Source: a virus (taxonomy: Duplodnaviria > Caudoviricetes). Taken from it: a stretch of 64,000 nt of DNA. Location of the stretch: positions 4,804 through 68,803 of IMG/VR virus record IMGVR_UViG_3300014204_000181; one strand, given 5' to 3'. This document shows, one piece after another, positions 22,402 through 59,740 of this stretch (its first letter is position 1; the number at the start of each line of letters is the position of its first letter). The notes beneath the pieces were generated by a model. The model saw only the letters and a program-made list of their open reading frames with translations. It did not search any database and was not told the DNA's origin. The translations under genes and the position numbers were made by a program.

Positions 22402-22779
22402 ATGGTTATCAGACAACTTTCGATTACGAGAGGGGATTCACAGACCTATAATCTGACCTTCAAGAAGGCAGACGGCACCCCTTACTGTATAAAAAACTGG
22501 GTGTTATTCTTTACAGTTAAGTCTAATTATGCCTTTCCAGATTCCAGCGCACTTTTTCAAAAAATCATAACTACTTTTGACGATACTACTTCTGGTACGT
22601 CCGGCTCTGCAAATATCAACGTGCTTCCGGAGGATACTGTTAACGCGACTCCTGGTGTGTATGATTACGACATTGCTGTGCGCACGTCGGACAATAAGAC
22701 GCTTACTGTGATGAAGGGCAAGTTAACTATTGAATATGACGTTACCAATTCTCCAGGAACGGCAGGTACGGCACCATGA
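22402..22779 (+). CDS. BppU-like / Ig-like tail attachment domain protein
   Basis: ITRGDSQTYNLTF...GVYDYDI...TVMKGKLTI; ends GTAGTAP. Confidence 0.65.
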   Translation: MVIRQLSITRGDSQTYNLTFKKADGTPYCIKNWVLFFTVKSNYAFPDSSALFQKIITTFDDTTSGTSGSANINVLPEDTVNATPGVYDYDIAVRTSDNKTLTVMKGKLTIEYDVTNSPGTAGTAP

Positions 22780-23654
22780 CGACTGAAACTAAAATTGATG
22801 TTATTATTTCTGCTGAACGTGCCATTGAAGTTATTTTTACTCCTGGAAGTCCTGCCGGATCATCCGGAACAAGTGGAACGTCGGGCCTTGATGGAACGTT
22901 CTATGGTTCTTCGGGCACTTCCGGTACCTCTGGCCTTGGTTCATCCGGAACGTCTGGTACTTCAGCAACATCTGTTACTTCGGGCACTTCCGGTACGTCA
23001 GGCACGGATGGTTCACACGGGACAAGCGGTACGAGCAGCATTAGCACTTCCGGTACTTCGGGCACTTCGGGCATTGGATCGCACGGAACATCCGGTACGT
23101 CTGCAACAGGAGTAACTTCCGGTACCAGCGGCACATCATCTACGGGAACGGGAAGCAGTGGTTCGAGTGGGTCAAGTGGCTTACCTGGGTCGTCAGGTTC
23201 TTCAGGGACGGCAGGTACCTCTGGAACGTCCGGAAGCAGAGGAAGCGATGGAACATCCGGCACTTCCGGCACTTCCGGTACCTCTGGAACGTCGAATACT
23301 GCTTCAGGATCGTCAGGCACTTCTGGTACTTCGGGAACGTCCAGCTCTGCAGGATCGCACGGAACGTCCGGCACAAGTGGTTCACCAGGTAGTCATGGTA
23401 CCAGTGGGACCTCGGGAAGCAGGGGAAGTGATGGCACGTCGGGCACCAGTGGTTCAGCCGGTAGCCATGGGTCCAGCGGCACTTCCGGAGCTGGCTCTTC
23501 TGGAACATCTGGAACATCGCCTTTAGGTTTTACATCAGGAACATCAGGCACGAATGGAAGTCACGGCACTTCTGGTACGTCAGGGACTGGCGGTAGCTCC
23601 GGATCATCAGGAACGAGTGTTTTGGATTTTCTTGCAGTACAGATATTCTCATAG
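22776..23654 (+). CDS. (Gly-Thr-Ser)n low-complexity fibre-like protein
   Basis: 292 aa, about 258 aa of G/S/T repeats between a short N-terminal strand and C-terminal VLDFLAVQIFS. Confidence 0.85.
   Translation: MTTETKIDVIISAERAIEVIFTPGSPAGSSGTSGTSGLDGTFYGSSGTSGTSGLGSSGTSGTSATSVTSGTSGTSGTDGSHGTSGTSSISTSGTSGTSGIGSHGTSGTSATGVTSGTSGTSSTGTGSSGSSGSSGLPGSSGSSGTAGTSGTSGSRGSDGTSGTSGTSGTSGTSNTASGSSGTSGTSGTSSSAGSHGTSGTSGSPGSHGTSGTSGSRGSDGTSGTSGSAGSHGSSGTSGAGSSGTSGTSPLGFTSGTSGTNGSHGTSGTSGTGGSSGSSGTSVLDFLAVQIFS
22845..23618 (+). repeat. Protein-level GTS/SGT repeat with degenerate codons
   Basis: Repeated GTSGTSG and SHGTSG units encoded by varied codons, so not a simple DNA microsatellite. Confidence 0.9.
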
Positions 23655-25602: not shown

Positions 25603-25605
25603 TTT

Positions 25606-26194: not shown

Positions 26195-26409
26195 ATTACG
26201 TGAAATCGGTATTTGCGGCCGGCACGAAGGACTCGCTTATGCGTTTCCTGTCTGCATTCATCGTTTTTGATGTAGTATTGTCATGGAACATTGCCTGTCT
26301 TTTCGAACGCAAATTTCTGGATATTCCTTACGGAGTAGGTGCCATTCTTACCGCTGCCATCCTGGGGAAAGCCGTCCAGAAGTTTGGCGAAAAAGGTGGA
26401 AAAGATTAG
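26191..26409 (+). CDS. Putative holin (two TM segments)
   Basis: 72 aa, two hydrophobic helices, basic C-terminus. Confidence 0.6.
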   Translation: MNYVKSVFAAGTKDSLMRFLSAFIVFDVVLSWNIACLFERKFLDIPYGVGAILTAAILGKAVQKFGEKGGKD

Positions 26410-26529: not shown

Positions 26530-29500
26530 ATGTTTAAAGAAATTAAAGTACACGCTACAGCAAACGAACGAACGGGTTATGGTATCCATGCGTCAAGGTT
26601 TTTCCCTGCGCTGGACAGGATCGCACAGTCACATCCGGATGATTCCGGAACGGTGCACATTACGTTACTGGATGTTGTCACGGCATCGAGGCATGATCTT
26701 AAGTTTCATCCGTCGCCGTCGATCCTCTTTAATGTATGGGAATCAACCGAATATCCGGCGCCATTCCTGAAAAATCTGGAGAATTATGACCAGTTATGGG
26801 TACCGTCAGAATGGCAGCGGGCATGCTCTATCGCCCAGGGGATACCGGAAGAGGTTGTCAAGGTGGTGCCGGAAGGTGTCGATCCGGATACGTATAAGCC
26901 TGGCGAGTGGATTGAAGGAACGTCGGGTACCTCTGGCGGTACGTTCGACTTTGTAACTGTTGGCCAGTGGCAACCTCGTAAATCCACTCAGGAGATATGT
27001 GAGGCCTTCATTAAGGCATTCCCGCTTAAGGAGTATCCCAACGTTCGATTGCACCTGTCTGTTGATACCCTGTTTCCTTCTGATGAATATAAATCCACAG
27101 AAGAGAGGTTAAAAGCATATGGCCTGGAAGACCCGAGATTCGTTGTTGTTCACTTTGAAGAGAGAGAAGAATACGTGCGGCGGCTACAGAAATCCCATTG
27201 TTTTGTGTCGTGTGCGCGTTCGGAAGGATGGGGACTCCCCATCATCGAAGCAATGGCGTGCGGAATACCTACCATCGTGGCTGATTGGTCGGGCTCTACT
27301 GAATACGCCCGCGCTGAACATGGTATTAAGGTACGCATCAAGGAACTGATAAAGCCCTTCGGTATCTATCAGAACTGGGATGTTCCTGGCAAATGGTGCC
27401 AGCCGGATTACGACCACCTGGTTGAAGTAATGCAGGACGTCTATAAGAATTTCTACAAGTATAAGGACCAGGCGCTTAAGACTTCCGAATACATCCGGAA
27501 AGAATTTTCCTGGGATGCTGCAGCGAGAAAAGCCCATGCAGTTTTAGAAGAACTGCATGCAAAATGGAAATCGCTGGAAAGTGTTGCATTAGTGCAACAT
27601 GAGGGAAAATCTTCTGAGGATGATATCCGTTCGTACGCTGCAAAGCATGGGTTTGAAATTACCAGTATGCGCCCGCGGTCTGCTATTTTTACAGTGAATT
27701 GCTGGCCGAGCTCCCAGGAGAAAATGGATACCTTGATGGAAACGATTAAGCAGATCAAGGGTCTGGGGTATCCCGTTCTCGTATCTTCTCACTATCCGTT
27801 ACCTCCGGTGGTGACAGAGCTTGTGGATTATTACCTTTTCGAGAAGCGCGACATAATGAGCGGCGACGATAAACCCGTGTATTGGAGGACCCGTGTTGAC
27901 GGTAGCCAGGAAACTAAACAGGCCAGCGTTGAATACCAGGGCGTTGCCGCCCTAAACTGTTTTCGTAACTCTATTGATTTTTGTCGCGGCCGTTATGATT
28001 GGATATACGACATGAGCTCTGACATGGAGGTAGACCTGGAGCACTGGTTGCGACTGGTAACGTCCTCCACTAAACCCATGGTGTGTATTCCCTATGAAGG
28101 AAACAAAGACGGGATTGGTGGTGGTCTGTGGGCCGGCCGTACCGAAGTGCTGGATAAGGTAATCCCGCGCCTCAATTCCTGGAAAGAGTACGCTGATAAA
28201 TTCCCCGACCTGCGCTTTGTTGCTGAAAAATGGATATACGCCCATGTGGTGTCGACGGGTTATGACGTTCAGAACGAACTCGAGTGGATCAGTATTGAAA
28301 CCGTTAACCGGTTTGATAACGTCGATAGGGAAATATGGGATGATGACGATTTTGTATGTCATTTCATTGAAGGCCCGTTTCTGCAAATCCAGGGTATTTC
28401 CAGAAGGATGTATGATGTATCCTTCATCGATAACGATAATAATGATTCCGTCCTTTACGGACTCAAGCAGCAAGTGGGCTCCTGGAGCCGTCCGAATGCC
28501 AAATACTTCAAAAACTGGACGGTACAGGCGCACCTGGATGGTATCGAAAAGTATTCCCATAAACTGGACCTCAAGGGCAAAAACGTGCTTATTTCCTTTG
28601 GTTCTAAAGCCCTGGGAGATACGATAGCCTGGATGCCCTATGTTGAGGAATTTCGAAAGAAGCACGGTTGTAATATCTATGCATCCGGCTGGTGGCAGGA
28701 AATTTTTGACTATCCGGAAATTACATATATAAAACCAGGAACGAAGATAGAGAATTGCTATGCTTCCTATGCGGTAGGCTGTTTCGATAATCAGCCGGAT
28801 ATGAACCCAAAAAACTGGAGGGAAGTACCATTACAGAAGGTTGCTGCGGATATCTTGGGTATTGAGTATGTACCTATTCGCGCCAACCTCAAAGTGAAGC
28901 CGCATAATAATAAGTATAAATATGTATGCTTCTCCGAGTTTTCTACCATGCGCGGCAAGATATGGAATCGTCCTGGTGCCTGGCAAAAGATTGTCGATTA
29001 CCTTAACGATCATGGATATGACTGTATTTCCATTGCGAACGAACGTTCTATTCTTGCCAATATCAAGCAGCATAGCGGCCAGCCGATTCAGAACACCATT
29101 GCTGACATTTCCGGCTGTTCTTTCTATATCGGCCTCAATCATGGCCCTGCATGGTTATCTCTGGCGCTGGACAAACCGACGATTATGATTACCGGTATGT
29201 CCGAACCCTGGAACGATTTCCCGAATCCGTACCGTTTATCCGTCGATATCTGCCGGCCAGGGTGCTTTAATGATCCGTCCTTACCTATTCAACGTGGCTG
29301 GGAATGGTGTCCGAGAAACAAGGATTATGCGTGTACCCGCGACGTTACGGAAGAAATGGTCATAAACGTAATAGATAAGTTGATAAAGGAGGACACATGC
29401 CAGTTGCCATCACGAAACGCAAAGGTGGTGGATATCAAGTCAGTACCCCCAACGGTGTCCACGCAAAAAACACAACCCTCGAAAAAGCAAAGGCGCAAGA

Positions 29501-29562
29501 AAGGCTCCTTAACGCCGTCGAGCATGGATGGAAGCCGACAGGCAAAAAAGGTTACGGGATAG
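26530..29562 (+). CDS. Multi-domain glycosyltransferase: GT4 + central domain + Aah/TibC-like protein O-(heptosyl)transferase
   Basis: GT4 motifs VGQWQPRKS and SEGWGLPIIEAMACG; from about 28351, SKALGDTIAWMPYVEEFRKKHGC, FYIGLNHGPAWL, CRPGCFND...WCP...YAC. Confidence 0.85.
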   Translation: MFKEIKVHATANERTGYGIHASRFFPALDRIAQSHPDDSGTVHITLLDVVTASRHDLKFHPSPSILFNVWESTEYPAPFLKNLENYDQLWVPSEWQRACSIAQGIPEEVVKVVPEGVDPDTYKPGEWIEGTSGTSGGTFDFVTVGQWQPRKSTQEICEAFIKAFPLKEYPNVRLHLSVDTLFPSDEYKSTEERLKAYGLEDPRFVVVHFEEREEYVRRLQKSHCFVSCARSEGWGLPIIEAMACGIPTIVADWSGSTEYARAEHGIKVRIKELIKPFGIYQNWDVPGKWCQPDYDHLVEVMQDVYKNFYKYKDQALKTSEYIRKEFSWDAAARKAHAVLEELHAKWKSLESVALVQHEGKSSEDDIRSYAAKHGFEITSMRPRSAIFTVNCWPSSQEKMDTLMETIKQIKGLGYPVLVSSHYPLPPVVTELVDYYLFEKRDIMSGDDKPVYWRTRVDGSQETKQASVEYQGVAALNCFRNSIDFCRGRYDWIYDMSSDMEVDLEHWLRLVTSSTKPMVCIPYEGNKDGIGGGLWAGRTEVLDKVIPRLNSWKEYADKFPDLRFVAEKWIYAHVVSTGYDVQNELEWISIETVNRFDNVDREIWDDDDFVCHFIEGPFLQIQGISRRMYDVSFIDNDNNDSVLYGLKQQVGSWSRPNAKYFKNWTVQAHLDGIEKYSHKLDLKGKNVLISFGSKALGDTIAWMPYVEEFRKKHGCNIYASGWWQEIFDYPEITYIKPGTKIENCYASYAVGCFDNQPDMNPKNWREVPLQKVAADILGIEYVPIRANLKVKPHNNKYKYVCFSEFSTMRGKIWNRPGAWQKIVDYLNDHGYDCISIANERSILANIKQHSGQPIQNTIADISGCSFYIGLNHGPAWLSLALDKPTIMITGMSEPWNDFPNPYRLSVDICRPGCFNDPSLPIQRGWEWCPRNKDYACTRDVTEEMVINVIDKLIKEDTCQLPSRNAKVVDIKSVPPTVSTQKTQPSKKQRRKKGSLTPSSMDGSRQAKKVTG

Positions 29563-30862: not shown

Positions 30863-31312
30863 ATGGCACTAAGAGTATCTACCGGATTTAGAAACGGGCT
30901 TTTAACCGGAAATAATTTCTATACCATGCTCAACCAGGGCATTGTGAGATTGTATTCCGGAACAATGGGCACCAATCCTGATACCGGCGTCGCGGCTACG
31001 GCCCTGGTGACATTCGAGCCATTATACTTTCAGACCGCCGCCACTGCAGGAACGATTTTCAATGGTACGAATGCGGTAAACGGTACCGGAGCGGTGGACG
31101 GTACGGCTGGATATTTCCGATTAAGCGAGTACGCCGACGATCCCACTGTGACGTCAACCACAGTCGCCCGTATAGACGGTGTGGTAAATACCAGCACGGG
31201 AGATATGATTATGGGTGACAATTTGATTTCCATTGGTCAGGTGTTGAGTTTGCAGATCGCCAGGTTTGGATTTCCGGTATTAGCAGGTACTTCCGGAACG
31301 TCAGGGACTTAA
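30863..31312 (+). CDS. Small virion protein, paralog 1 (ends GTSGTSGT)
   Basis: MALRVSTGFRN...LYSG...GTAGYFR...RIDG. Confidence 0.75.
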   Translation: MALRVSTGFRNGLLTGNNFYTMLNQGIVRLYSGTMGTNPDTGVAATALVTFEPLYFQTAATAGTIFNGTNAVNGTGAVDGTAGYFRLSEYADDPTVTSTTVARIDGVVNTSTGDMIMGDNLISIGQVLSLQIARFGFPVLAGTSGTSGT

Positions 31313-32205: not shown

Positions 32206-33156
32206 ATGCCCGCAATACTTCCAGCCCTTCAATTTCACGGGGAACTTACTGACGCTACCGAAGCGCCTACATCCGTAATCATTATGGGTGTGCTTCCATC
32301 TATATTCATGGAGCTTGCCCAGGGAAGCGTTCTCGATGTTGAAATAAACAATTTCACTTTTTCTGCGACGGGTTATCTTGGCGTAAACGGCAGCATTCCG
32401 GACTTGAATATGTCCTTTGGGCTTACTATGTCCGGCTCCCAGGCGTTGTCTGGTACCCTGGAAGTTGCCGCCCTCAAGATGGCTTTTACCGGCACTGGCA
32501 ATGTCGGCCAGATAAGTACCTTCAACAAATCCATTGCGTTTGCTTTTACTGCTTCCGGCAATGTCGGCAATATCGGAACGATGGACTTGGTGTTCAATCA
32601 CGTCCGTTTGTCTTCGGCTTCCGCGTATATTTCGCCCATTGGCAATCTGCAGCTTACCCTGGGCCTTGAATTTTCAGCTACCGGCAGCAGCACGATATTC
32701 AAAAGCATGGTGCTCAATCTTAAGAATAATGCTCTTACCGAATATCTTTCTTACGTTTTTAACTCCATGTGTTCCTTCAATGGCAAACTGTACGGTGCGG
32801 CCAGTAATGGAATCTATGAGCTCACGGGCGAAGAAGATGCTGGAAGTGATATCCCCTGGCGTTTCCGTACCGGCAAGCTGGACCTTGAAACGGACAACGT
32901 TAAGAAATCCCTTCGATACGCCTGGCTGGGTTACAAGGCCTCTGGTGAGCTTACCCTGTCCGTATTCGACCAGGACGGCAACCAGTATGATTACATAGTA
33001 GAAAATATTCGTAATACGGATGGTGGCATACGCGTAAAGACTGGTAAGGGCATTCGGTCCCGTTACGTGGAGCTCCAGCTTGCCAACATAGACAATGAAA
33101 CGATTTCCCTTGATAAAATGAGGATTTTTACTGAACTTACAGGGAAGAAACGTTAA
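32206..33156 (+). CDS. Putative tail structural protein
   Basis: 316 aa; C-terminal YVFNSMCSFNGKLYGAASNGIYEL...GKGIRSRY domain. Confidence 0.65.
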   Translation: MPAILPALQFHGELTDATEAPTSVIIMGVLPSIFMELAQGSVLDVEINNFTFSATGYLGVNGSIPDLNMSFGLTMSGSQALSGTLEVAALKMAFTGTGNVGQISTFNKSIAFAFTASGNVGNIGTMDLVFNHVRLSSASAYISPIGNLQLTLGLEFSATGSSTIFKSMVLNLKNNALTEYLSYVFNSMCSFNGKLYGAASNGIYELTGEEDAGSDIPWRFRTGKLDLETDNVKKSLRYAWLGYKASGELTLSVFDQDGNQYDYIVENIRNTDGGIRVKTGKGIRSRYVELQLANIDNETISLDKMRIFTELTGKKR

Positions 33157-35027
33157 TGGCATATCGGCGCATACGAACGGGGAGTCTTGCTGATGCTAAT
33201 GCGGCGATTCAGTATCAGAAAGCAAAGCTGTTCCTTGACAAAACCGGACTCGTAAAGATGCGCTACCCGTTGCAGGGCGGTGGGAGTATAACGGTCCAGC
33301 GTTACGGGGAAATGGAAATAGTTGATATCGTCGGAGGATTTAAGGGTGTTGGTGATGGTTATATTGTCGGCCTGGTTGATGTGGGTACTTACGGTACTGA
33401 TGGAACGGGAGGGACGTACGGCACTGCATCCTGGAGCGTTTATTATCAGACGTTCACCAGGAACAAGGAATCGGCCCAGTGGGATTTTGTTTTCGGTGCA
33501 TTACAGACCCAGGCAGGAACGGACTTCTCGCTTGGCAGTGCTGCAGGATGGCAGTATAAAAACAATGCCCCCCTGCTTGGTTACAATACTTATAATGATT
33601 ACGGCACGGCTGTTTACCTCTACGGAACGTCGGGAGTGGGTTATAAATATGAAGCGGAAAAGTGGTGTGCTCATGGAGTTAACACTTATAATATAGGAAA
33701 TAAGATTTTCTTTAATGGTGTCGGACTTGCATATGCTACAGGGACTTTCCCATGGATAGCAGACGGGAATTATGACTATCGTGAGATTAATCCGGCAAAG
33801 TTTCTGTATAAGATAGTCGGAGTGGTTGGCCATCCAACGTGGGTTTATACTCTATGGCCATGGTGCAAATTATATGATCTTAATACGCTACAGGTACAGC
33901 TTTTATCATGGGGAACAACCGGCTATCCCAGCTCTGTTACTGCGTACGATGGAACAAATTCAACGATTGATGTGGGTTATTTCCAAACGGGTTTTGCTCA
34001 ATCGCATCATGACAGCCGCGGCAAGCCTTATTATGAGGATTCGTATTATTTTACAACCACAGGCTCTTCGGGGACGAGTGGAACAGGAGGCACAAGCAGT
34101 ACAAGCAGTACGGTCGGCACTAACTGGGCGCCTACCTGGACCTTTTCCGGCACGTCTTGGGATGGAGTGGGTACAATTCCCGCTGATCTTAACACGTACG
34201 CATATTGTGACAATGGGACTTATGGAACAACCGGAACGCAGTGCGTAGGTACGAATAGTTACGTTGTCGATGGAACAAACTGGAATTTTGAATGGACGTT
34301 CATACTACCGAAAAAGGTTATCATCCCCTTAGATTATAACTGGGACAGTTACCATGCGGGGGAGCTGAAGGGGTATCCACCTAATGCATCCATATCGTTT
34401 GATTGCGTGGACGTGTTTGATGAATTTGTAACTTTTCCGGAATTGCTCCAGATAATAACAAACTGGAATAATAGCTTAGAAGGGGTTATAGAATATGAAG
34501 CAGTAAAATGCACGGGTGTCGGTACGGTAACTGCGTTCACTTTCGATACTCCGATTGCGGCAGGAAACGAAGGCAGTTTTTGGGCCTTTGACAATTATCC
34601 TTACTTATCACGGAAACGGACGTGGATAGGAGGCGTACACGGAACGGCGGGCACGATAGGGATTGCGCTTCCGGAAATACCTGGCAAGTTTTTTCCGCGT
34701 TCTAAACTGCATATGTCCGTTCACATGCGATGGGCAGATGCAACGATAGAAGGATTAAAGGTTTGCAGAAGGTTTTATTATGGGTATGAGTTTAAATATG
34801 GAACGGATTATACTGCAGGAGCGTATGGCACTTACGGTACCCGTTTTATCAATTCGCAAGGCGTTGGTATCAGCGGAAATGATTCCATGGGGTGCGTGTA
34901 TGTCAAAACCAATTTCCACCCTATACAGCAGTTTGAATACATTGATCCGAATGGTGCGCTGTCAGCACTGGTATTTCAATCGTCTTTCGGCTCCAATAAC
35001 GTCATTGCGGTAGGCTCACTGGGATAA
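33156..35027 (+). CDS. Putative tail spike/fibre protein with many Gly-Thr motifs
   Basis: 623 aa; GTYGTDGTGGTYGT, SGTSGTGGT, GTYGTTGT, GAYGTYGT. Confidence 0.65.
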   Translation: MAYRRIRTGSLADANAAIQYQKAKLFLDKTGLVKMRYPLQGGGSITVQRYGEMEIVDIVGGFKGVGDGYIVGLVDVGTYGTDGTGGTYGTASWSVYYQTFTRNKESAQWDFVFGALQTQAGTDFSLGSAAGWQYKNNAPLLGYNTYNDYGTAVYLYGTSGVGYKYEAEKWCAHGVNTYNIGNKIFFNGVGLAYATGTFPWIADGNYDYREINPAKFLYKIVGVVGHPTWVYTLWPWCKLYDLNTLQVQLLSWGTTGYPSSVTAYDGTNSTIDVGYFQTGFAQSHHDSRGKPYYEDSYYFTTTGSSGTSGTGGTSSTSSTVGTNWAPTWTFSGTSWDGVGTIPADLNTYAYCDNGTYGTTGTQCVGTNSYVVDGTNWNFEWTFILPKKVIIPLDYNWDSYHAGELKGYPPNASISFDCVDVFDEFVTFPELLQIITNWNNSLEGVIEYEAVKCTGVGTVTAFTFDTPIAAGNEGSFWAFDNYPYLSRKRTWIGGVHGTAGTIGIALPEIPGKFFPRSKLHMSVHMRWADATIEGLKVCRRFYYGYEFKYGTDYTAGAYGTYGTRFINSQGVGISGNDSMGCVYVKTNFHPIQQFEYIDPNGALSALVFQSSFGSNNVIAVGSLG

Positions 35028-50969: not shown

Positions 50970-51065
50970 TTAATGATTAGGCATTATACTTGTTCCTATT
51001 GCGATCCCGATACACAGCCACATCCACCAGGGACCAACGAACGCTTGAGCAATAAATGCTTCCAT
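50970..51065 (-). CDS. 31-aa hydrophobic micro-protein
   Basis: MEAFIAQAFVGPWWMWLCIGIAIGTSIMPNH; GGAGG RBS; TAATG overlap with the methyltransferase stop. Confidence 0.5.
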   Translation of the reverse strand: MEAFIAQAFVGPWWMWLCIGIAIGTSIMPNH

Positions 51066-52273
51066 TATATTACCTCCAATTCCGGCATGGGAATAATAAA
51101 CTTCCCCTTCCATTTCTTGATGTAGCTTAACTGTTTGGTAATTTCCCGCCGCAGGTTCCAGGGCAGTATCAAAACGTAATCCGGCGCAATCTGGCATAAT
51201 TCATCTTCTGTAGTAATCCGGATATGGCTACCAGGTAAATACTTGCCCTGCTTCTGTGGTGAGATATCCACGACAAACGGAATCGTATCAGACTTGATTC
51301 CGCAGTAATTAAGTAAGGTATTCCCTTTGGCCGCGGCTCCGTAAGCAACCACTACCTTATCGCAAGGTATGTCATAAAGACGCTGCATCAGTCTTCTCCG
51401 GATACCTTCAACCTTGTTCTGCATACCTTCGTAGTATTCAATAAAGTCCATGCCCAGGGTTTTTTCTTTCTGCAAAACCTCTTCCACGTACTTTGTAACT
51501 TTTCGTTTCCCACCTTCATGCTGTGCATATATCCGTAACGATCCACCATGGGTAAACAACTCGTCGACGTCAAACACCTGCATACCGTGAAACTCGAACA
51601 TGTTCATTACAACGCCCAGTGAATAATAAAAGTAATGCTCATGGTAAATGGTATCAAACAGGCAGTCTTCCATCAAGCGCAACAAGTGCGGAAACTCCAT
51701 CGTAATAATTCCGGACGGCTTAAGGCATATCCGCATGCCCTTGATGAAGTCGTTGATATTAGGCACGTGAGCGAAAACATTGATCCCCAGGACAAGATCG
51801 AAGAACGGCAGCGTCTTAGCCAGTTTGGATGTAAAGAATTTCGGGATAGCGAATATCCCCTTCTTGTTTGCTTCGGCTACTGCCTGGGCCGCTGGATCAA
51901 TGCCAATACAGGGTATCCGTCGTTCAACAAAGTGCTGCAGGAGATACCCGTCGTTGGACCCTATCTCGAGCACGTTACTTTCAATATTCAGCCCGTACTT
52001 ATGGATCATCAGCTGAACGTATTTCTTCGCATGCTCTACCCATGACGATGAATGCGAAGAATGATAAGCATAATTATTGACGAAGATTTCCGCGGCCGGT
52101 TTGTATTCCGGCACCTGGACAAGCATGCATTTAGTGCATACGAATACTTTCAGCGGGTAGTATATTTCCGCATCTTCCAACTGCTCTCGAGTAAGCAGTG
52201 AATTGGATGGCGGCTGGTGCCCCAGGTCAAGCATTTCAAAGGTTAACTCTGCTCCGCAAAATTTACAATTCAC
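51065..52273 (-). CDS. NDP-hexose C-methyltransferase (Zn-binding + SAM + C-terminal domains)
   Basis: CKFC...LDLGHQPPSN...CTKCMLVQ, EIGSNDG, IYHEHY, YGAAAKGNTLLNYCG. Confidence 0.9.
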   Translation of the reverse strand: MNCKFCGAELTFEMLDLGHQPPSNSLLTREQLEDAEIYYPLKVFVCTKCMLVQVPEYKPAAEIFVNNYAYHSSHSSSWVEHAKKYVQLMIHKYGLNIESNVLEIGSNDGYLLQHFVERRIPCIGIDPAAQAVAEANKKGIFAIPKFFTSKLAKTLPFFDLVLGINVFAHVPNINDFIKGMRICLKPSGIITMEFPHLLRLMEDCLFDTIYHEHYFYYSLGVVMNMFEFHGMQVFDVDELFTHGGSLRIYAQHEGGKRKVTKYVEEVLQKEKTLGMDFIEYYEGMQNKVEGIRRRLMQRLYDIPCDKVVVAYGAAAKGNTLLNYCGIKSDTIPFVVDISPQKQGKYLPGSHIRITTEDELCQIAPDYVLILPWNLRREITKQLSYIKKWKGKFIIPMPELEVI

Positions 52274-52282
52274 GCTTCCCTC

Positions 52283-53308
52283 CTAACCCTGATTACAGTA
52301 ACTGTTTATCTGCTCGTTCGTCAACACCATGCCGTCATAGAAGTGCTTATACCAGTACATTGCTGTCCGGACGGCCGTTCTCATGGTCCATTGCGGCGTC
52401 CATCCCAGCTTCTTTCTGGCTTCCGTACTGTCGATCTTAAGTAGCTGCACCATACTCGGGTGCGTTTCCTGTTCTTTGACGATAAACTTGACTTCCGGCC
52501 ATACCTGCTGGGCTTCCTTGAGCACATCCAGGACGGTCATTTCACCAACGGGCCCGAAATTCCAATTCCTGGCAATCTCCTGCTCTCCGTTCATTAATCT
52601 GGCTCCCAGCATCAGGTATCCGCACAGGGGTTCAAGCACATGCTGCCAGGGACGGGTAGCGTTCGGCGTATGGATTTCCACTTCCTGGCCGGCAATCGTC
52701 GCCCGCACAATATCCGGAATCAGGCGTGCATACGCCCAGTCACCGCCGCCGATAACATTACCCGCTCGAGCGGTAGCAATCATGGGAAGAAACTGTGAGC
52801 GATAGCATTCGATAACATGCTCAACGCATACCTTTGATGCCGAATACGGGTCCAGGCCGCCCAGCTCGTCGTTTTCCCTGTAGCCCCAGCCCCATTCCTT
52901 GTTGGCATATACCTTGTCCGTCGTAATCATAACAATCACGGGCGGCTTTTCGACGTTCCGGCATGCCTCGAGCAGATGAACGGCGCCCATAACATTGCTT
53001 TCGAATGTTTCCAGGGGTTCATGGAACGTTCGTGCTACAATGGCGTTTGCCGCAAGGTGAAAGACGATATCCGGCTTCCAGTGCTCGATCATGTTATAAT
53101 TCTCCTGGATATTGCCGTGCTTTTCAGTCACCCTGCTACACAGGCCCAGGATATCGTAATGGTTCGGCTCCGTGTGCGGTTTCCTGGACAGGCCATAGAC
53201 GTCGGCGCCCAGGTTGACTAACCACTGGCATAGCCAGCTCCCCTTGAATCCCGTGTGTCCTGTTACCAATACCTTCTTGTCCTTGTACGCGTTTACCAGA
53301 TTTTCCAT
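52283..53308 (-). CDS. rfbG: CDP-glucose 4,6-dehydratase
   Basis: VLVTGHTGFKGSWL, ITTDKVY, DPYSASK, RAGNVIGGGDW, RPWQHVLEPL. Confidence 0.95.
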   Translation of the reverse strand: MENLVNAYKDKKVLVTGHTGFKGSWLCQWLVNLGADVYGLSRKPHTEPNHYDILGLCSRVTEKHGNIQENYNMIEHWKPDIVFHLAANAIVARTFHEPLETFESNVMGAVHLLEACRNVEKPPVIVMITTDKVYANKEWGWGYRENDELGGLDPYSASKVCVEHVIECYRSQFLPMIATARAGNVIGGGDWAYARLIPDIVRATIAGQEVEIHTPNATRPWQHVLEPLCGYLMLGARLMNGEQEIARNWNFGPVGEMTVLDVLKEAQQVWPEVKFIVKEQETHPSMVQLLKIDSTEARKKLGWTPQWTMRTAVRTAMYWYKHFYDGMVLTNEQINSYCNQG

Positions 53309-54075
53309 TCAGCTCTCCCTTCTCTCCATAGTTTGTTAAGCTCATGCATTTCGGGTAATGTGTCCATGCATCCCCAGTAACCGGCATGCGGGTGTACCAT
53401 CAACTGCCCGTCAGCGGCCAGCTTGTCCAGCACGCCGATTTCCAGGTCACAATCGTCGCCATTGTGCAGATAATCGAATATCTTCTGATTGAATACGAAG
53501 AAGCCCCCGTTAACCATCTGCTGGTTGTTCTCTGGCTTTTCGGAAAACGAAGTCACCATCCAGCTGTCATGTTTGATTTCACCAAATCGCGGCTTCGGGT
53601 GAATGCCGGTAACTGTAGCAATCTTACCATGATGTAAGTGAAAGTCCAGTAATCGCTGCATATTGACGTTACCAACACCGTCGCCATATGTGACAAAGAA
53701 GTTTTCCGCGCATGATACATACTTCCTGATCCTGTTCAACCTGGCGCCCTTTAACGTCTTCTCGCCGGTATCGGACAGAGTTACTTTCCATTCCGGATTG
53801 TCTTCCTTCCACCAGTGCTCGTAAAACTGGCCCTTCTCTACGGTAATATCATTGTTGATTACCGCGTAGTGAGCGAAGTAATTCTTGAATACCTCCTGCT
53901 TGTAGCCCAATGCCAGGACAAAATCACGTACACCGTAATGGTAATACAGCCGCATAATGTGCCATACCATGGGCTTGCCGCCAATCGGGATCATGGGTTT
54001 GGGAACAAACTCCGTCGCTTCCTGGAGCCTGGTACCGGTACCGCCGCATAGGATAACTGCCGGAATGTCTTTCAC
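53293..54075 (-). CDS. rfbF: Glucose-1-phosphate cytidylyltransferase
   Basis: VILCGGTGTRL, PKPMIPIGG, TYGDGV, VNGGFFVF, GYWGCMDT; adjacent to rfbG. Confidence 0.95.
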   Translation of the reverse strand: MKDIPAVILCGGTGTRLQEATEFVPKPMIPIGGKPMVWHIMRLYYHYGVRDFVLALGYKQEVFKNYFAHYAVINNDITVEKGQFYEHWWKEDNPEWKVTLSDTGEKTLKGARLNRIRKYVSCAENFFVTYGDGVGNVNMQRLLDFHLHHGKIATVTGIHPKPRFGEIKHDSWMVTSFSEKPENNQQMVNGGFFVFNQKIFDYLHNGDDCDLEIGVLDKLAADGQLMVHPHAGYWGCMDTLPEMHELNKLWREGRAEWKIW

Positions 54076-57219: not shown

Positions 57220-57432
57220 TTATGATAATGGTCCTTCTTTCATGATGTACCTTATGCTGTGCGGAAGAATAAAGAAACGGGCGTCACTCTTTTTGGTAAA
57301 GACAAGATCATCATTTACCCAAAATCCGTTTATGAAATCAAGGATACTTTCGCCCCAGGCATGACGGTGCTTTTCTTCAAAAACATACTCGCACCGGTAC
57401 CTCAACTTCTTCATGCTAACCTCCGTAGCCAC
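57220..57432 (-). CDS. Hypothetical protein
   Basis: 70 aa, overlaps the end of the CmcI-like gene. Confidence 0.5.
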   Translation of the reverse strand: MATEVSMKKLRYRCEYVFEEKHRHAWGESILDFINGFWVNDDLVFTKKSDARFFILPHSIRYIMKEGPLS

Positions 57433-58172
57433 CCGCCTGGCGCCGCGGTAATCATTGCCCGTTGTTCAATTTCCCTGTCGACAACAAACCTCTTATCGCG
57501 TGACATAAACTCCTGGACCGCCGTATAGGGATTATCCCCAGGGCCCCAGGGCCTATCTGCCGGCTTCTCTTTCATCATCAGCTCAATAGCGGTATCGAAG
57601 ACGATCATGTAACTGCCAGGAGAAACAAAACACGAATACAGGGCCAGCTCCTGCATGACGTGACTGTGGGTATGGTTGGAGTCCAGGCACACCATTACCG
57701 TCTGCAGGATATTCTTTCCAATAACTGTCCCTATTAAATCTATGACGGTGGTTGCTATACTATCGCCGGTAACGGGCGTGATCCGGCCTGACAGTGGATG
57801 CCGCTCCAGGGCCCTCCGGTTATGGTAACGCAAATCATTGTCAACAGTGATTACGCGCCCCTTCCCCATAGCTTCCAGGATCGACGCATAAAATACCGCC
57901 GTGCCGCCGAATGCCGTACCCGTTTCAATAATCAGGTCCGGCTCCAACTTCCATATAAGCTCCTGGAGCACCATCAAGTCTGTGGGATACTGGATGATCG
58001 GCCGGCCCATCCAGGTATAGCGCTTGGTGAAATCAATCTCCACCAGGTATTCCGTGAAGGTACGGATTATCCCCCGATCTGCCCATGCTTGGTTAATCGA
58101 CGTTTTCTGTTCGCTTTCCTTTATGTATTTTTCTACATATTCGCATTTCTTCCAGTCCGGTACCTTTATCAT
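57411..58172 (-). CDS. CmcI-family (cephalosporin hydroxylase-like / sugar O-methyltransferase) protein
   Basis: YTWMGRPIIQYPTD, EPDLIIETGTAFGG, CLDSNHTHSHVMQEL, GDNPYTAV. Confidence 0.9.
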   Translation of the reverse strand: MIKVPDWKKCEYVEKYIKESEQKTSINQAWADRGIIRTFTEYLVEIDFTKRYTWMGRPIIQYPTDLMVLQELIWKLEPDLIIETGTAFGGTAVFYASILEAMGKGRVITVDNDLRYHNRRALERHPLSGRITPVTGDSIATTVIDLIGTVIGKNILQTVMVCLDSNHTHSHVMQELALYSCFVSPGSYMIVFDTAIELMMKEKPADRPWGPGDNPYTAVQEFMSRDKRFVVDREIEQRAMITAAPGGWLRRLA

Positions 58173-59740
58173 ATCCTCACCCCCAGTATATCCGCTCGTT
58201 TTCTCCAGAGCTCACTCTTCCCCAGGATGCTCAAGAATCGCCCATACTCGTAATTCCCCGTCCGGTACAGTTTCTTTTTGCACAGGGACATACAGTAATA
58301 AGCGAAGGCGTGATCCTTGTACCGCTGCAGCACGTCCTCGAAACACTTGAGCGCCGTCGTATAATCCCCCATGGCCATGCGTTGATTATGCAGGAAATTT
58401 ACATCCAGGTTCATCAAATAAACTTCCTCTTCCAACTCTGCAGGATCAACCCCAGGGACATTGATAATATACTTCTTGTCCACAATGTCCTCGATCCGCT
58501 GTTTCTTGATCCATCCGTTGGCCAGGCACCGGTCATACAGCGCACTGCCTCTTACCGGTGTCGCCATGTTGAGCCCTGCCCAGTCCAGTTTTATCTCGCG
58601 CAGGAAGTCCAGGGTTTCTTCCCGATGTTCGGGCGTTTCTCCAGGCATGCCCATGACGAAGAATCCATGGATAAAGAAGTTGTATTGCCGGAGCATATCC
58701 ACCACCGGCTTTACCTGCTCGAGCTTGAGCGGTTTCCGGATCAATTCCTTGAGCACGTACGGACTACCGTTTTCAATGGCCAGGTAGATTGTATCCATGC
58801 CGGCTTCCTGCATGAGAAAGCATAGCTCTTCGTCCATGTAGGCAACAGACACGCCGTTAGGCAACTCCACCCTGATATGAAACTTCGCCAGCTCGCGGAA
58901 GAGGTCCTTTGCCCTGTCAGTGTCCAGCAATATTTGGTCGTCGTAGATCGTGAGCACTTCCATTCCGTAATGATGAACCAGGTAACCAACATGATCCATT
59001 ATGTTATATATACTGGCCTGTCTTACCTGCTTCCCGTGTATCATCGAATTGCTGCAGAAGGTGCACTGAAACGGGCAGCCCCTACTGGTCATAAGGAAAA
59101 ATTGCCGCTTGTTCTGGTTGTCGATGAATGGTGAAAAGGCCTGTTTCATCTTGTACGCATCAACGTCGACGTAGCCATAAGCAAGATCAATCACGTCATT
59201 GAGATTATAGACAAAGGATGGCTTAACGGGCCGCCTGTTTCCCAGTGATTCTCGAGTTACCCAGGAGTAATGATGATCCAACGTGTATTGCCATTCCGAC
59301 GAATACTTTATCAAATCCTGTATGGGTAATTCACCTTCACCAAAACAAACCGCATCCAGCTCCGGCTGATCCTTAAGGATTTCCTCGTATGAATAAGACG
59401 CGGCGGCGCCCCCCAGGAGCGTGACTGCTTTGCAATTCATATCCTTGACAAGCCCCAGTAGCCGGCGCAGGTGCTTATATGAATTGTCGAACATCATGGA
59501 AAACCCGACGATATCCGGCTGATAGGTTTTCATTAATTCCTTTATCGTCATTCCATAAGACGCCGGATCGGGATAGTTGTTCAGATCAACCACCAGAAAA
59601 TTAGCGTTGGCATCGTTATAGCTGACAAGGGACAGGACGCCATACGGGAAGGCGTGATAACTCCGAATCTTCGCGCCGGTACTGTCCGTTTCCACCATGT
59701 ACGGCAATACAACCATGAGAATTGTCGGGTTATCCCGCAT
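58169..59740 (-). CDS. B12-binding radical SAM protein
   Basis: PYGVLSL, PDIVGFS, GEGE, TSRGCPFQCTFC, FFVMGMPGET. Confidence 0.9.
   Translation of the reverse strand: MRDNPTILMVVLPYMVETDSTGAKIRSYHAFPYGVLSLVSYNDANANFLVVDLNNYPDPASYGMTIKELMKTYQPDIVGFSMMFDNSYKHLRRLLGLVKDMNCKAVTLLGGAAASYSYEEILKDQPELDAVCFGEGELPIQDLIKYSSEWQYTLDHHYSWVTRESLGNRRPVKPSFVYNLNDVIDLAYGYVDVDAYKMKQAFSPFIDNQNKRQFFLMTSRGCPFQCTFCSNSMIHGKQVRQASIYNIMDHVGYLVHHYGMEVLTIYDDQILLDTDRAKDLFRELAKFHIRVELPNGVSVAYMDEELCFLMQEAGMDTIYLAIENGSPYVLKELIRKPLKLEQVKPVVDMLRQYNFFIHGFFVMGMPGETPEHREETLDFLREIKLDWAGLNMATPVRGSALYDRCLANGWIKKQRIEDIVDKKYIINVPGVDPAELEEEVYLMNLDVNFLHNQRMAMGDYTTALKCFEDVLQRYKDHAFAYYCMSLCKKKLYRTGNYEYGRFLSILGKSELWRKRADILGVRI

What the first reader, a model, noticed from the sequence alone, without database searches (positions are those of the whole stretch)
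28351..29390. Aah/TibC-type protein heptosyltransferase domain fused to a GT4 domain
Seen: an N-terminal beta-rich lid (FIEGPFLQIQG...YFKNWTV), SKALGDTIAWMPYVEEFRKKHGC, IGLNHGPAWL, and a four-Cys cluster C-x3-C...WCP...C at 29251-29334. Established: TibC/Aah are Fe-binding, four-Cys, GT-B protein O-heptosyltransferases that use ADP-heptose. Inference: the C-terminal domain primes Ser/Thr and the GT4 domain elongates, giving a one-polypeptide glycan assembly line. No ADP-heptose synthesis genes are in the window, so the donor is host-derived or a different nucleotide sugar.
Basis: partly seen in the sequence, partly recalled or inferred. Interest (0 to 1): 0.85.

Follow-up and report, generated by a model that had tools for sequence, protein, structure and literature searches.

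The report
Phage three-module enzyme with TibC-like domain
A 69-kb phage encodes one 1010-residue protein that joins three sugar-transferring modules, the last a clear but altered relative of the bacterial TibC/Aah enzymes that attach heptose to proteins; it most likely sugar-coats the phage's own particle proteins, something shown so far only for mycobacteriophages.

Summary
Window 28351-29390 is the C-terminal module (residues 608-954) of one ORF, 26530-29562 (+), 1010 aa. It matches TibC by sequence (E 4e-37) and by fold (TM 0.88, rmsd 2.3 A). LPS heptosyltransferases score far lower.

Kept from TibC: the beta-barrel lid, the catalytic Asp, the Thr/Lys/Trp donor contacts and all four finger Cys. 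Not kept: the adenine-reading Arg-286 is Thr, the sugar-selectivity residue is Asn, and the beta-hairpin thumb that builds the TibC dodecamer is cut short. The NCBIfam score is 194-197 bits against a cut-off of 200.

The protein is therefore GT4 + GT-A-like + TibC-like.

The gene sits in the late structural operon. The same fusion recurs in hundreds of 65-75-kb phage contigs, and at least 592 IMG/VR contigs encode relatives.

Likely acceptors are Gly-Thr-Ser/Ala stretches in virion proteins. These motifs are absent from three capsid-related phages that lack the enzyme, and a (GTS)n fibre gene lies near the enzyme gene in 38 of 80 loci, including cultured Microcystis phage Mel-JY01.

The sugar donor is unresolved. 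No ADP-heptose genes are present; a CDP-deoxyhexose island is.

This is a new variant of a known kind. Earlier notes of this scan concern this same window only.

The parts
26530..29562 (+). Whole gene: 1010-aa three-module glycosyltransferase (P0001)
   Evidence: Single open frame. 624 full-length relatives, mostly on contigs of 65-75 kb.
26530..27564 (+). Module 1: GT4 (GT-B) glycosyltransferase, residues about 1-345
   Evidence: Pfam PF00534 at 56.6 bits, PF13692, PF20706; phrog_2170 E 3e-32 over residues 66-342. The E232...E240 pair (EX7E) is invariant or nearly invariant in 36 homologues.
27607..28350 (+). Module 2: GT-A-fold domain with no Pfam family, residues 360-607. Conserved D498-x-E500-x-D502 follows a beta strand.
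   Evidence: AF2 pLDDT 95.3. Foldseek gives GT-A enzymes at E about 2e-5. VIA-align gives Z 12.5-14.3 over about 165 residues to GT2/GT78/GT-A enzymes and to sugar nucleotidyltransferases. Conserved columns. No Pfam hit at E<=1.
28351..29391 (+). Module 3: TibC/Aah-like (BAHT-like) domain, residues 608-954.
28351..28599 (+). Beta-barrel 'lid' of module 3 (about residues 608-690; seven strands in the model)
   Evidence: Model secondary structure. Equivalent to TibC residues 1-97. The TibC alignment starts at TibC residue 43.
28618..28620 (+). Asp697, equivalent of the TibC catalytic base Asp-110
   Evidence: Alignment to 4rap, and to 4rb4 (the D110A mutant). Role of Asp-110 from PMC4358343. Asp in 332 of 332 domains.
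28945..28959 (+). Thr806 and Lys810, equivalents of TibC Thr-226 and Lys-230 (beta-phosphate contacts)
29095..29097 (+). Thr856, at the position of TibC Arg-286 (adenine N1 contact): not conserved
   Evidence: This position is Thr in 216 and Arg in only 34 of 332 domains. Nearly invariant Thr in the close family.
29137..29154 (+). Asn870 (position of TibC Pro-300 / Aah Ser-294, the heptose C6 stereoselectivity residue) and Trp875 (equivalent of Trp-305, heptose O4 contact)
29035..29085 (+). Shortened segment in place of the TibC beta-hairpin thumb (17 residues against 27 in a classical BAHT; Phe-265/Val-266 missing)
   Evidence: Gaps in the alignment. Segment lengths. Role of the thumb in the dodecamer.
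29251..29334 (+). Four-Cys finger: C908, C912, C927, C935, equivalent to TibC Cys-339/342/358/370
   Evidence: Cys in 331-332 of 332 domains. Spacing is CX3C here and CX2C in TibC.
29392..29559 (+). Basic, probably disordered C-terminal tail (residues 955-1010), variable among homologues
   Evidence: Sequence. Non-conserved consensus. pLDDT falls at the end of the model.
22776..23654 (+). Candidate acceptor: 292-aa (Gly-Thr/Ser-Ser)n collagen-like fibre protein (P0122)
   Evidence: Translation. PHROG collagen-like minor tail / tail fibre. 24 GT[ASGY]GT motifs against 0.5 in shuffles.
22402..22779 (+). Candidate acceptor: 125-aa virion protein ending in ...PGTAGTAP. The tag is kept in the orthologues of G001 and G003.
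30863..31312 (+). Candidate acceptor: phrog_3758 virion protein ending in ...AGTSGTSGT
33156..35027 (+). Candidate acceptor: 623-aa structural protein with 8 GT[ASGY]GT motifs
51065..54075 (-). Possible donor supply: glucose-1-P cytidylyltransferase (53293-54075), CDP-glucose 4,6-dehydratase (52283-53308), sugar C-methyltransferase (51065-52273)
   Evidence: NCBIfam TIGR02623 at 289 bits (cut-off 300) and TIGR02622 at 418.6 bits (cut-off 278). Pfam Methyltransf_14/13.
57411..63460 (-). Further glycan-tailoring genes: CmcI-type O-methyltransferase, B12 radical SAM enzyme, a second GT4, and a GT2 + radical SAM fusion

Best explanation
P0001 is a late-expressed, cytoplasmic, three-module glycosyltransferase: GT4, then a GT-A-like domain, then a TibC-like domain. 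It belongs to a phage with an N4-gp56-type capsid that infects a host with an outer membrane.

**What is shown**
- The C-terminal module is a true homologue of the bacterial autotransporter heptosyltransferases (BAHTs, TibC/Aah).
- It has the same beta-barrel lid, GT-B core and four-Cys finger.
- The catalytic base (Asp697) and the phosphate and sugar contacts (Thr806, Lys810, Trp875) are intact.

**What is inferred**
- This module transfers a sugar to Ser/Thr hydroxyls in Gly-flanked stretches of the phage's own virion proteins before or during assembly. Those stretches are the (GTS)n collagen-like fibre and the short GT(A/S)GT tags.
- The GT-A-like and GT4 modules add further sugars.
- The separate methyltransferase and radical-SAM genes tailor the glycan.
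- The result would be a glycan coat on fibre, head and tail proteins.

**Oligomer.** The thumb that assembles TibC into a dodecamer is truncated and the module is tied to two others. It therefore probably does not work as a TibC-like ring.

**Donor.** The donor of the TibC-like module is open. I put about 60% on a sugar other than ADP-heptose, because the adenine-reading Arg and the C6-side-chain-reading residue are both replaced in this whole clade. I put about 40% on host ADP-heptose.
For: **Homology and fold:**

**Catalytic and donor residues.** Mapped from the TibC alignment onto the roles given in PMC4358343. Asp, Lys, Trp and the four Cys are kept in essentially all of 332 related domains.

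**Other modules.** GT4 motif E232...E240. GT-A fold of the middle domain.

**Genomic position.**
- Same strand and block as portal, capsid, adaptor, fibre, lysis cassette and head-closure genes.
- An overlapping i-spanin/o-spanin pair with a lipobox (LLISC) lies just upstream, which points to a host with an outer membrane (sequence, my reading).

**Conservation.**
- 624 full-length fused relatives, typically on 65-75-kb contigs.
- At least 592 IMG/VR contigs encode relatives.
- Among 39 other multidomain relatives, partner domains are GT4 in 30, FkbM methyltransferase in 13, other methyltransferases and GT2. This fits glycan assembly.

**Acceptor evidence.**
- GT[ASGY]GT occurs in 7 proteins of this phage, 6 of G001 and 9 of G003. 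All are in the structural block, and shuffled expectation is about 0.01 per protein.
- The C-terminal GTAGT tag is kept in orthologues.
- There are 0 motifs in the structural modules of three capsid-related isolates without the enzyme, 108 kb in all.
- 55 of 80 enzyme-bearing loci have at least one motif protein.
- 38 of 80 have a (G-T/S-x)n ORF in the flank held, nearly always on the same strand.
- In G015 and in the cultured phage Mel-JY01 the fibre gene lies directly beside, or one gene from, the enzyme gene.
- 6 of 120 loci picked only for a GTS-coding pattern carry a TibC-like domain in a stretch of about 9.5 kb. In cultured phage records the domain is found in only 4 of 50,697.

**Precedent.** Mycobacteriophages glycosylate the C-termini of capsid and tail-tube proteins (Freeman 2023, as cited in PMC12619734 and PMC12363180).

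**Donor.**
- No GmhA or HldE in the genome.
- The position of Arg-286 is Thr and that of Pro-300 is Asn.
Against: - No glycan, glycoprotein or enzyme activity has been observed. Everything about the acceptor is by association.
- Two close relatives with the same enzyme (G001, and G003 with terminal repeats) have no (GTS)n ORF at all. The fibre therefore cannot be the obligatory substrate.
- 114 of 120 GTS-pattern loci show no TibC-like gene in the stretch held.
- There are only three enzyme-free control phages, and they are distant (capsid 34-41% identical).
- TibC modifies Ser and not Thr, yet GTAGTA tags offer only Thr.
- The donor contacts Thr, Lys and Trp are kept. The lost Arg-adenine bond is described as weak, so ADP-heptose from a Gram-negative host is not excluded.
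- Thr at position 286 also occurs in complete phage genomes without the CDP-sugar genes (G010, G012). That substitution therefore does not point specifically to a CDP-sugar.
- Which module primes is unknown.
Confidence: 0.55

Rival explanations
1. It is a true heptosyltransferase. The TibC-like module uses the host's ADP-heptose pool, as Aah and TibC do, and puts heptose on Ser of phage (or other) proteins. The replaced Arg and Pro/Ser positions are only neutral drift. This rival concerns the donor only and is compatible with virion proteins being the target.
For: The closest solved structure and the closest curated family are both ADP-heptose enzymes. Thr-226, Lys-230, Trp-305 and Asp-110 are all kept. 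The Arg-286 contact is called weak by the authors. The spanin pair indicates a host with an outer membrane that may make ADP-heptose. The phage carries no ADP-heptose genes, so it would have to rely on the host. Thr-type enzymes occur in phages without any CDP-sugar genes.
Against: R286A abolished or strongly reduced TibC activity, and this clade has Thr there almost without exception. The residue that reads heptose C6/O6-O7 is Asn, not Pro or Ser. All Arg-type domains, including the classical one, fall in a separate clade from the query. A relative is carried by a Microcystis phage. From my own knowledge, not tested here, cyanobacterial LPS generally lacks heptose. The score is below the equivalog cut-off.
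Confidence: 0.35
2. The enzyme acts on the host rather than on the virion. It would glycosylate host surface proteins (adhesins, autotransporters, pili, S-layer) or envelope glycans, to mask receptors and block superinfection or to remodel the cell late in infection.
For: Classical BAHTs modify bacterial surface adhesins. Phage glycosyltransferases that alter host serotype are well known (review cited in PMC12619734). The GT4 domain matches Pfam 'GT4 in conflict systems' (PF20706, 40.9 bits).
Against: The gene lies inside the late structural operon, not in an early or lysogeny module. No integrase was seen among the ORFs scanned. Receptor masking is of little use to a lytic phage at the stage of assembly. 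The Gly-Thr motifs are concentrated in the phage's own structural proteins and co-vary with the enzyme. The enzyme has no signal peptide or membrane segment in its sequence (by eye).
Confidence: 0.1
3. The modules, together with the sugar island, decorate phage DNA (glycan hypermodification of bases) rather than protein.
For: Phage GT-A and GT-B enzymes that build glycans, including heptose, on 5-hydroxymethylcytosine are documented (bioRxiv 10.1101/2023.12.21.572611). The genome has many sugar-tailoring genes.
Against: No thymidylate-synthase-type hydroxymethylase, no C5 cytosine methyltransferase and no Tet/JBP match in the whole genome (the Tet/JBP control rang nowhere, so that one test is weak). 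The TibC fold with lid and Cys finger is known only with protein acceptors. The gene is in the structural block, not the replication block.
Confidence: 0.04
4. The TibC-like module is a non-catalytic substrate-binding or scaffolding domain that presents acceptors to the other two modules.
For: The iron finger and barrel of TibC take part in substrate recognition. The thumb and one donor contact are lost.
Against: The catalytic Asp and the Lys, Thr and Trp donor contacts are kept in 318-332 of 332 domains. That is not expected of a dead domain.
Confidence: 0.03

Closest known systems
TibC / Aah bacterial autotransporter heptosyltransferases (BAHT family; NCBIfam TIGR04414; PDB 4RAP, 4RB4)
   Same: Same domain plan: N-terminal flattened beta-barrel, a GT-B core whose N-lobe is atypical, and an inserted four-Cys finger. 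The catalytic Asp-110, Thr-226, Lys-230 and Trp-305 are all kept. About 28-35% identity, TM 0.88. The acceptor is presumably protein Ser/Thr.
   Different: - It is the last third of a 1010-aa three-module protein, not a 406-aa stand-alone enzyme.
- It is phage-encoded with no autotransporter gene beside it. Compare pVir68, where the enzyme gene abuts its autotransporter gene.
- Arg-286 is Thr and Pro-300/Ser-294 is Asn.
- The thumb hairpin (Phe-265/Val-266) is deleted, so a dodecamer ring is unlikely.
- The first Cys pair is spaced CX3C, not CX2C.
- The score is just below the family cut-off.
- It sits in a separate clade from the Arg-type enzymes.
LPS inner-core heptosyltransferases WaaC/WaaF (GT9, Pfam PF01075)
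   Same: Distantly related GT-B fold. Next-best structural matches at E 3e-9 to 6e-8.
   Different: TM is only about 0.5. These enzymes have no beta-barrel lid and no Cys finger. PF01075 gives no hit on P0001 at E<=1. Their acceptor is a lipid-linked sugar, not a protein.
Mycobacteriophage virion glycosylation (Che8, Corndog, Myrna; Freeman et al. 2023, cited in PMC12619734 and PMC12363180)
   Same: Phage-encoded glycosyltransferases that are proposed here, and shown there, to O-glycosylate the phage's own capsid and tail proteins, including at C-terminal tags.
   Different: The hosts are actinobacteria. Those systems use separate single-domain glycosyltransferases. No TibC-like module has been reported there. 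Only weak GT4-level similarity (22-26%) to actinophage glycosyltransferases was seen here. Not compared further.
Serine-rich-repeat and collagen-like glycoprotein systems of Gram-positive bacteria (GtfA/B, SdgA/B; BclA of Bacillus). From my own knowledge, apart from a weak SdgA hit.
   Same: Long Ser/Thr-rich repeat or Gly-X-Thr collagen-like fibres are densely O-glycosylated in the cytoplasm by GT4-type primers and then extended, in BclA with methylated deoxysugars.
   Different: No homology beyond the GT4 fold (SdgA model E 0.028). Those systems have no TibC-like module and are not viral.

Membership tests
BAHT (TibC/Aah), NCBIfam TIGR04414 equivalog | HMM score at or above the curated cut-off (200 bits) | tested here: not met
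   194.3 bits on the protein and 197.2 bits in the six-frame search. A narrow miss; E is 3e-57 to 7e-60.
BAHT (TibC/Aah) | TibC protomer fold: N-terminal beta-barrel plus GT-B catalytic domain | tested here: met
   AF2 pLDDT 94.4. Foldseek to 4rap: TM 0.88, rmsd 2.3 A over 372 columns.
BAHT (TibC/Aah) | Catalytic base Asp-110 | tested here: met
   Asp697 aligns with Asp-110. Asp in 332 of 332 related domains.
BAHT (TibC/Aah) | ADP-heptose contacts Thr-226, Lys-230, Trp-305 | tested here: met
   Thr806, Lys810 and Trp875.
BAHT (TibC/Aah) | Arg-286 reading adenine N1 (specificity for an ADP-activated donor) | tested here: not met
   Thr856. This position is Thr in 216 and Arg in 34 of 332 domains.
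BAHT (TibC/Aah) | Four-Cys finger (Cys-339/342/358/370) binding iron | tested here: inconclusive
   All four Cys are present and universally conserved, but the first pair is CX3C. The bound metal cannot be tested with these tools.
BAHT (TibC/Aah) | Beta-hairpin thumb with two hydrophobic tip residues, giving a dodecamer | tested here: not met
   The segment is 17 residues against 27 in a classical BAHT, and Phe-265/Val-266 fall in an alignment gap. The model shows only a two-residue bridge there. Oligomeric state itself is not testable.
BAHT (TibC/Aah) | Gene paired with an autotransporter adhesin substrate | tested here: not met
   Neighbours are phage lysis and structural genes. Compare pVir68, where the enzyme gene abuts an autotransporter gene.
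BAHT (TibC/Aah) | Transfers heptose from ADP-heptose to protein Ser | not testable with these tools
   Needs an enzyme assay or glycoproteomics.
GT4 (Pfam Glycos_transf_1) | Pfam score over the gathering cut-off, and the E-x7-E motif | tested here: met
   PF00534 at 56.6 bits against 26.4. E232 is invariant and E240 at least 90% conserved.
GT-A fold glycosyltransferases | Nucleotide-diphospho-sugar transferase fold with an acidic DxD-type motif after a core strand | tested here: inconclusive
   The fold is matched at Z 12.5-14.3, but sugar nucleotidyltransferases match equally well. Conserved D498-x-E500-x-D502 follows strand 132-137 of the model. No Pfam family matches.
GT9 LPS heptosyltransferases (PF01075) | Pfam PF01075 match | tested here: not met
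   No PF01075 hit on P0001 at E<=1. The family does hit 21 of 39 more distant relatives.

The most novel reading that the evidence does not exclude
The thumb-less, Arg-less TibC-like modules define a widespread, phage-specific system of virion O-glycosylation directed by a short sequon. In this reading, Gly-Thr-(Ala/Ser)-Gly-Thr tags and (GTS)n collagen-like fibres are the acceptors. One multi-module enzyme builds a methylated deoxysugar-containing glycan from non-heptose donors. Such glycan coats are common on environmental phages of Gram-negative bacteria and cyanobacteria.
Probability: 0.35. Interest if true: 0.85.

Novelty: new variant of a known kind. Interest (0 to 1): 0.68.

Why it matters
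**What is known.** Protein O-heptosyltransferases of the TibC/Aah type are known only as partners of virulence autotransporters in proteobacteria. Glycosylation of phage particles has been shown experimentally only for mycobacteriophages.

**What this adds.** The same catalytic scaffold turns up in hundreds of phage contigs. It lacks its oligomerisation thumb and its adenine-reading residue. It is fused to other sugar- and methyl-transferases. It lies next to genes for Ser/Thr-rich fibres.

**If the proposed function holds:**
- It gives a candidate acceptor motif and a cultured test system (Microcystis phage Mel-JY01).
- It gives a family of compact, possibly monomeric protein O-glycosyltransferases with altered donor specificity.
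- This bears on phage-host recognition, on immune recognition of therapeutic phages, and on glyco-engineering.

**Practical point.** Automatic pipelines already label these genes 'autotransporter strand-loop-strand O-heptosyltransferase'. For phages that label is probably misleading.

Tried and rejected
1. **Is the (GTS)n fibre the obligatory substrate?** Rejected. The close relatives G001 and G003 carry the enzyme but have no GST-rich ORF anywhere in their contigs.

2. **Does Thr at the Arg-286 position signal use of the phage's CDP-sugar?** Rejected. The complete genomes G010 and G012 have Thr there but no CDP-glucose 4,6-dehydratase. The dehydratase is found only in the three closest relatives.

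3. **Do most (GTS)n genes in viral contigs sit beside a TibC-like gene?** No. Only 6 of 120 do within the stretch held. This looks like enrichment, but no background rate could be measured, so there is no tight linkage.

4. **DNA hypermodification.** No ThyS-type, C5-MT or Tet/JBP genes were found. The Tet/JBP search had no positive control.

5. **Literature.** No paper on phage-encoded TibC-like enzymes or on Mel-JY01 was found in the library. Freeman 2023 is not held and is cited second-hand.

6. **Nucleotide-level search.** Megablast of 22 kb of the window against cultured phages found no match.

7. **Protein Atlas search with the middle domain.** It gave only unnamed viral clusters, with weak leads to GT2 and WavE.

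8. **Not done.**
   - The host was not identified.
Full report
**1. What is at the coordinates**

The flagged stretch (28351-29390) is the last third of one open reading frame, 26530-29562 on the + strand. It encodes 1010 aa, kept as P0001. FVCHFIEG begins at residue 608 (nt 28351). ALGDT begins at 694 and LNHGPAW at 869. The four cysteines are C908, C912, C927 and C935, at nt 29251-29334.

The window is bases 4804-68803 of a 68,803-bp IMG/VR phage contig with 123-bp direct terminal repeats.

**2. Identity of the C-terminal module**

- NCBIfam TIGR04414 (hepto_Aah_TibC) matches residues 626-950 over profile positions 27-373 of 374. E is 2.9e-57 and the score 194.3 bits; the six-frame search gave 197.2 bits. 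Both fall just under the 200-bit equivalog cut-off.
- phmmer against PDB sequences finds TibC (4rap, 4rb4) at E 4e-37.
- An AlphaFold model of residues 600-965, built on 54 sequences, has pLDDT 94.4.
- Foldseek on that model puts TibC first: E 3.5e-34, TM 0.88, rmsd 2.3 A over about 372 columns. The LPS heptosyltransferases WaaF and WaaC follow at E 3e-9 and worse, with TM about 0.5.

The homology claim stands.

**3. Residue-level comparison with TibC**

I mapped the alignment onto the roles described by Yao et al. 2014 (PMC4358343).

| TibC residue | Role in TibC | This protein |
|---|---|---|
| Asp-110 | catalytic base | Asp697 |
| Thr-226, Lys-230 | beta-phosphate contacts | Thr806, Lys810 |
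| Trp-305 | heptose O4 contact | Trp875 |
| Cys-339/342/358/370 | iron finger | C908/C912/C927/C935 (first pair CX3C, not CX2C) |
| Arg-286 | contacts adenine N1; R286A abolishes or strongly reduces activity | Thr856 |
| Pro-300 (Ser-294 in Aah) | selects the heptose C6 stereoisomer | Asn870 |
| Phe-265/Val-266 | tip of the beta-hairpin thumb; mutation breaks the dodecamer | fall in an alignment gap |

The thumb segment is 17 residues here and 27 in a classical E. coli plasmid BAHT (L003:4881-6098).

I aligned 332 related domains in a script.
- Asp, Lys, Trp and the four Cys are kept in 329-332 of them, and Thr-226 in 318.
- The Arg-286 position is Thr in 216 and Arg in only 34.
- The Arg-type domains have the longer thumb segment (median 24 residues against 17).

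A FastTree tree (midpoint-rooted, sampling biased towards the query) puts all 34 Arg-type domains, including the classical one, in one clade with support 0.95. The query lies in the other clade.

**4. The rest of the protein**

- Residues about 1-345 are a GT4 glycosyltransferase. Pfam PF00534 scores 56.6 bits and phrog_2170 gives E 3e-32. The E232...E240 motif is conserved.
- Residues 360-607 have no Pfam match, but the model is confident (pLDDT 95.3).
- That model has the GT-A / nucleotide-diphospho-sugar transferase fold. Foldseek gives E about 2e-5. VIA-align gives Z 12.5-14.3 over about 165 residues.
- Glycosyltransferases and sugar nucleotidyltransferases score alike in that comparison.
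- A conserved D498-x-E500-x-D502 lies just after a core strand, and there is no G-x-G-x-R loop. Both favour a glycosyltransferase. This is my inference.

The protein is thus a three-module enzyme.

**5. Genomic setting**

The gene lies in the + strand late block, in this order (the major capsid protein is named N4-gp56 family by JGI):

| Window position | Gene |
|---|---|
| 13386 | terminase |
| 15030 | portal |
| 18891 | N4-gp56-type major capsid protein |
| 20981 | adaptor |
| 22776 | collagen-like fibre |
| 25078 | endolysin |
| 26530 | P0001 |
| 29925 | head-closure protein |
| 30863-32192 | three phrog_3758 virion proteins |
| 37862-48919 | 3685-aa internal protein |

Just upstream of P0001 are an N-terminally anchored coiled-coil protein (25606-26013) and an overlapping small lipoprotein with the lipobox LLISC (25913-26194). 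I read this as a spanin pair, which indicates a host with an outer membrane.

The - strand block 48914-63460 encodes:
- a glucose-1-P cytidylyltransferase (289 bits, cut-off 300);
- a CDP-glucose 4,6-dehydratase (418.6 bits, cut-off 278);
- a sugar C-methyltransferase;
- a CmcI-type O-methyltransferase;
- two B12 radical SAM enzymes;
- a second GT4;
- a GT2 + radical SAM fusion.

No GmhA or HldE (ADP-heptose synthesis) is present in the whole genome.

**6. Distribution**

- The full three-module fusion has 624 relatives in the metagenome protein collection. The best 120 are 49-87% identical, and many lie on contigs of 65-75 kb.
- A search of 1.8 billion cluster representatives finds 1275 proteins with the TibC-like domain at E<=0.001. 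Most of the top 150 are multidomain proteins of 500-2000 aa.
- Among 39 of these with other architectures, partner domains are GT4 in 30, FkbM methyltransferase in 13, other methyltransferases, GT2 in 4 and TylF in 1.
- Among 50,697 cultured or deposited phage records, only Microcystis phage Mel-JY01 and three huge-phage records have the domain.
- Classical BAHTs on enterobacterial and Burkholderia plasmids are about 30% identical.

JGI's pipeline already names many of the phage proteins 'autotransporter strand-loop-strand O-heptosyltransferase'. I found no paper that discusses phage-encoded enzymes of this type.

**7. What it probably acts on**

The fibre protein P0122 (22776-23654) is 292 aa of almost pure (Gly-Thr/Ser-Ser)n.

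*The short motif GT[ASGY]GT*
- It occurs in 7 proteins of this phage, 6 of relative G001 and 9 of relative G003.
- All of these are in the structural block. Shuffled expectation is about 0.01 per protein.
- The C-terminal ...GTAGT.. tag of the 125-aa protein is kept in all three phages.
- The structural modules of three isolates related by capsid protein (34-41% identity) but lacking the enzyme contain none in 108 kb. These are Xanthomonas phage DES1, Stenotrophomonas phage StenR_269 and Pseudoalteromonas phage vB_Pun_Y3.
- Of 80 enzyme-bearing viral loci, 55 have at least one motif protein.

*The long (G-T/S-x)n fibre*
- 38 of the 80 loci have such an ORF in the flank held, nearly always on the same strand as the enzyme gene.
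- In the complete genomes G010, G012 and G015 the fibre genes lie within 3 kb of the enzyme gene or directly beside it.
- In Mel-JY01 the + strand ORF 2-3052 of the record is a (GTS)n protein of at least 1016 aa, one gene upstream of the enzyme gene. GenBank annotates the opposite-strand reading instead.

*Limits*
- G001 and G003 have the enzyme but no long GTS ORF.
- Only 6 of 120 loci chosen by a GTS-coding DNA pattern hold the domain in the stretch held.
- TibC modifies Ser and not Thr.
- The controls are few and distant.

The association is therefore suggestive, not proof.

**8. Mechanism proposed**

*Shown:* an intact TibC-type catalytic module, joined to two further transferase modules, encoded among late genes, and conserved across a large phage clade.

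*Inferred:*
- The module O-glycosylates Gly-flanked Ser/Thr in virion proteins in the cytoplasm.
- The other modules extend the glycan.
- Methylation and deoxysugar supply come from the separate island.
- Loss of the thumb, together with the fusion, implies a non-dodecameric enzyme.

*Donor:* open. Retained phosphate and sugar contacts, and a host with an outer membrane, allow host ADP-heptose. Loss of Arg-286 and replacement of the C6-reading residue across the clade, and relatives in a cyanophage, favour another nucleotide sugar. The Thr substitution does not track the CDP-sugar island. Asn at the Pro-300 position is seen in the three island-bearing genomes and not in the three complete genomes without the island, which is too few to count.

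**9. Rivals**

- *A true ADP-heptose enzyme* (a rival on the donor question only): about 0.35.
- *Action on host surface proteins or glycans:* about 0.1. The late structural position and the phage-borne motifs argue against it.
- *DNA glycan hypermodification:* about 0.04. No hydroxymethylase, C5-MT or Tet/JBP gene was found, and the fold is known only with protein acceptors.
- *A dead scaffold domain:* about 0.03. The catalytic residues are conserved.

**10. Verdict**

The domain works like, and descends from, the TibC/Aah family. It fails four membership features:
- the curated score cut-off;
- Arg-286;
- the thumb (and with it the dodecamer);
- an autotransporter partner.

I class it as a new variant of a known kind, and interest is fairly high. 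It points to a widespread, untested system of phage virion O-glycosylation, with a candidate acceptor motif and a cultured model phage.

Noticed in passing
L001:2-3052 (+) = PP395634.1 bases 2-3052, Microcystis phage Mel-JY01: One + strand frame, open from the start of the record, encodes a (Gly-Thr/Ser-Ser)n collagen-like protein of at least 1016 aa with a globular C-terminal domain. GenBank instead annotates two - strand 'hypothetical proteins' (1-651, 739-2298; PVPE-type repeats) plus a short + CDS (2519-3052). The + strand reading looks like the real gene. It lies one gene upstream of the GT4-FkbM-TibC-like enzyme gene (4750-8430).
   Followed up: partly
window 24688-26409: A lysis cassette lies directly upstream of the enzyme gene. 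It has a holin-like membrane protein (24688-25068), an endolysin (25078-25602), an N-terminally anchored coiled-coil protein (25606-26013) overlapped by a small lipoprotein with the lipobox LLISC (25913-26194), and another small membrane protein (26191-26409). The overlapping pair looks like i- and o-spanins, which implies a host with an outer membrane.
   Followed up: partly
window 26917-26943 (P0001 residues 130-138): The enzyme itself carries a GTSGTSGGT stretch between the lobes of its GT4 domain. This stretch is variable in homologues (consensus 'x'). It could be a flexible linker or a self-glycosylation site.
   Followed up: no
L204:1611-2579 (-) = genome bases 1611-2579, outside the window: A radical SAM/SPASM protein (323 aa) lies on the - strand at the start of the contig. 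Because the contig has terminal repeats, the - strand sugar and radical-SAM island of the window (48914-64000) continues across the contig ends into this region.
   Followed up: partly
window 12244-13023: A 259-aa protein with a C-terminal Tad2-like (Thoeris anti-defence 2) domain (Pfam PF11195, E 8.6e-22). Next to it is an FkbM-type methyltransferase (11560-12234).
   Followed up: no
P0051 (1375 aa) and two members of alignment A4: Some homologues of the three-module enzyme carry an intein splicing domain (PF14890), so the gene is a target of mobile inteins in some phages.
   Followed up: no
P0010, P0274, P0310 (48 listings): NCBI records name close homologues as MAG proteins of Methanoregula, Dehalococcoidia or Moranbacteria. 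Their contigs are phage-like, some of 60 kb and more, so these are probably phage contigs binned with cellular genomes.
   Followed up: no
window 18891-19880 and 37862-48919: The capsid protein is of the N4-gp56 family. Its closest cultured relatives are Pseudoalteromonas phage vB_Pun_Y3 (41%), Xanthomonas phage DES1 (36%) and Stenotrophomonas phage StenR_269 (34%). The last of these carries a 'putative virion-associated RNA polymerase' in the position where this phage has its 3685-aa protein (PHROG hits: unknown function, DarB-like).
   Followed up: partly
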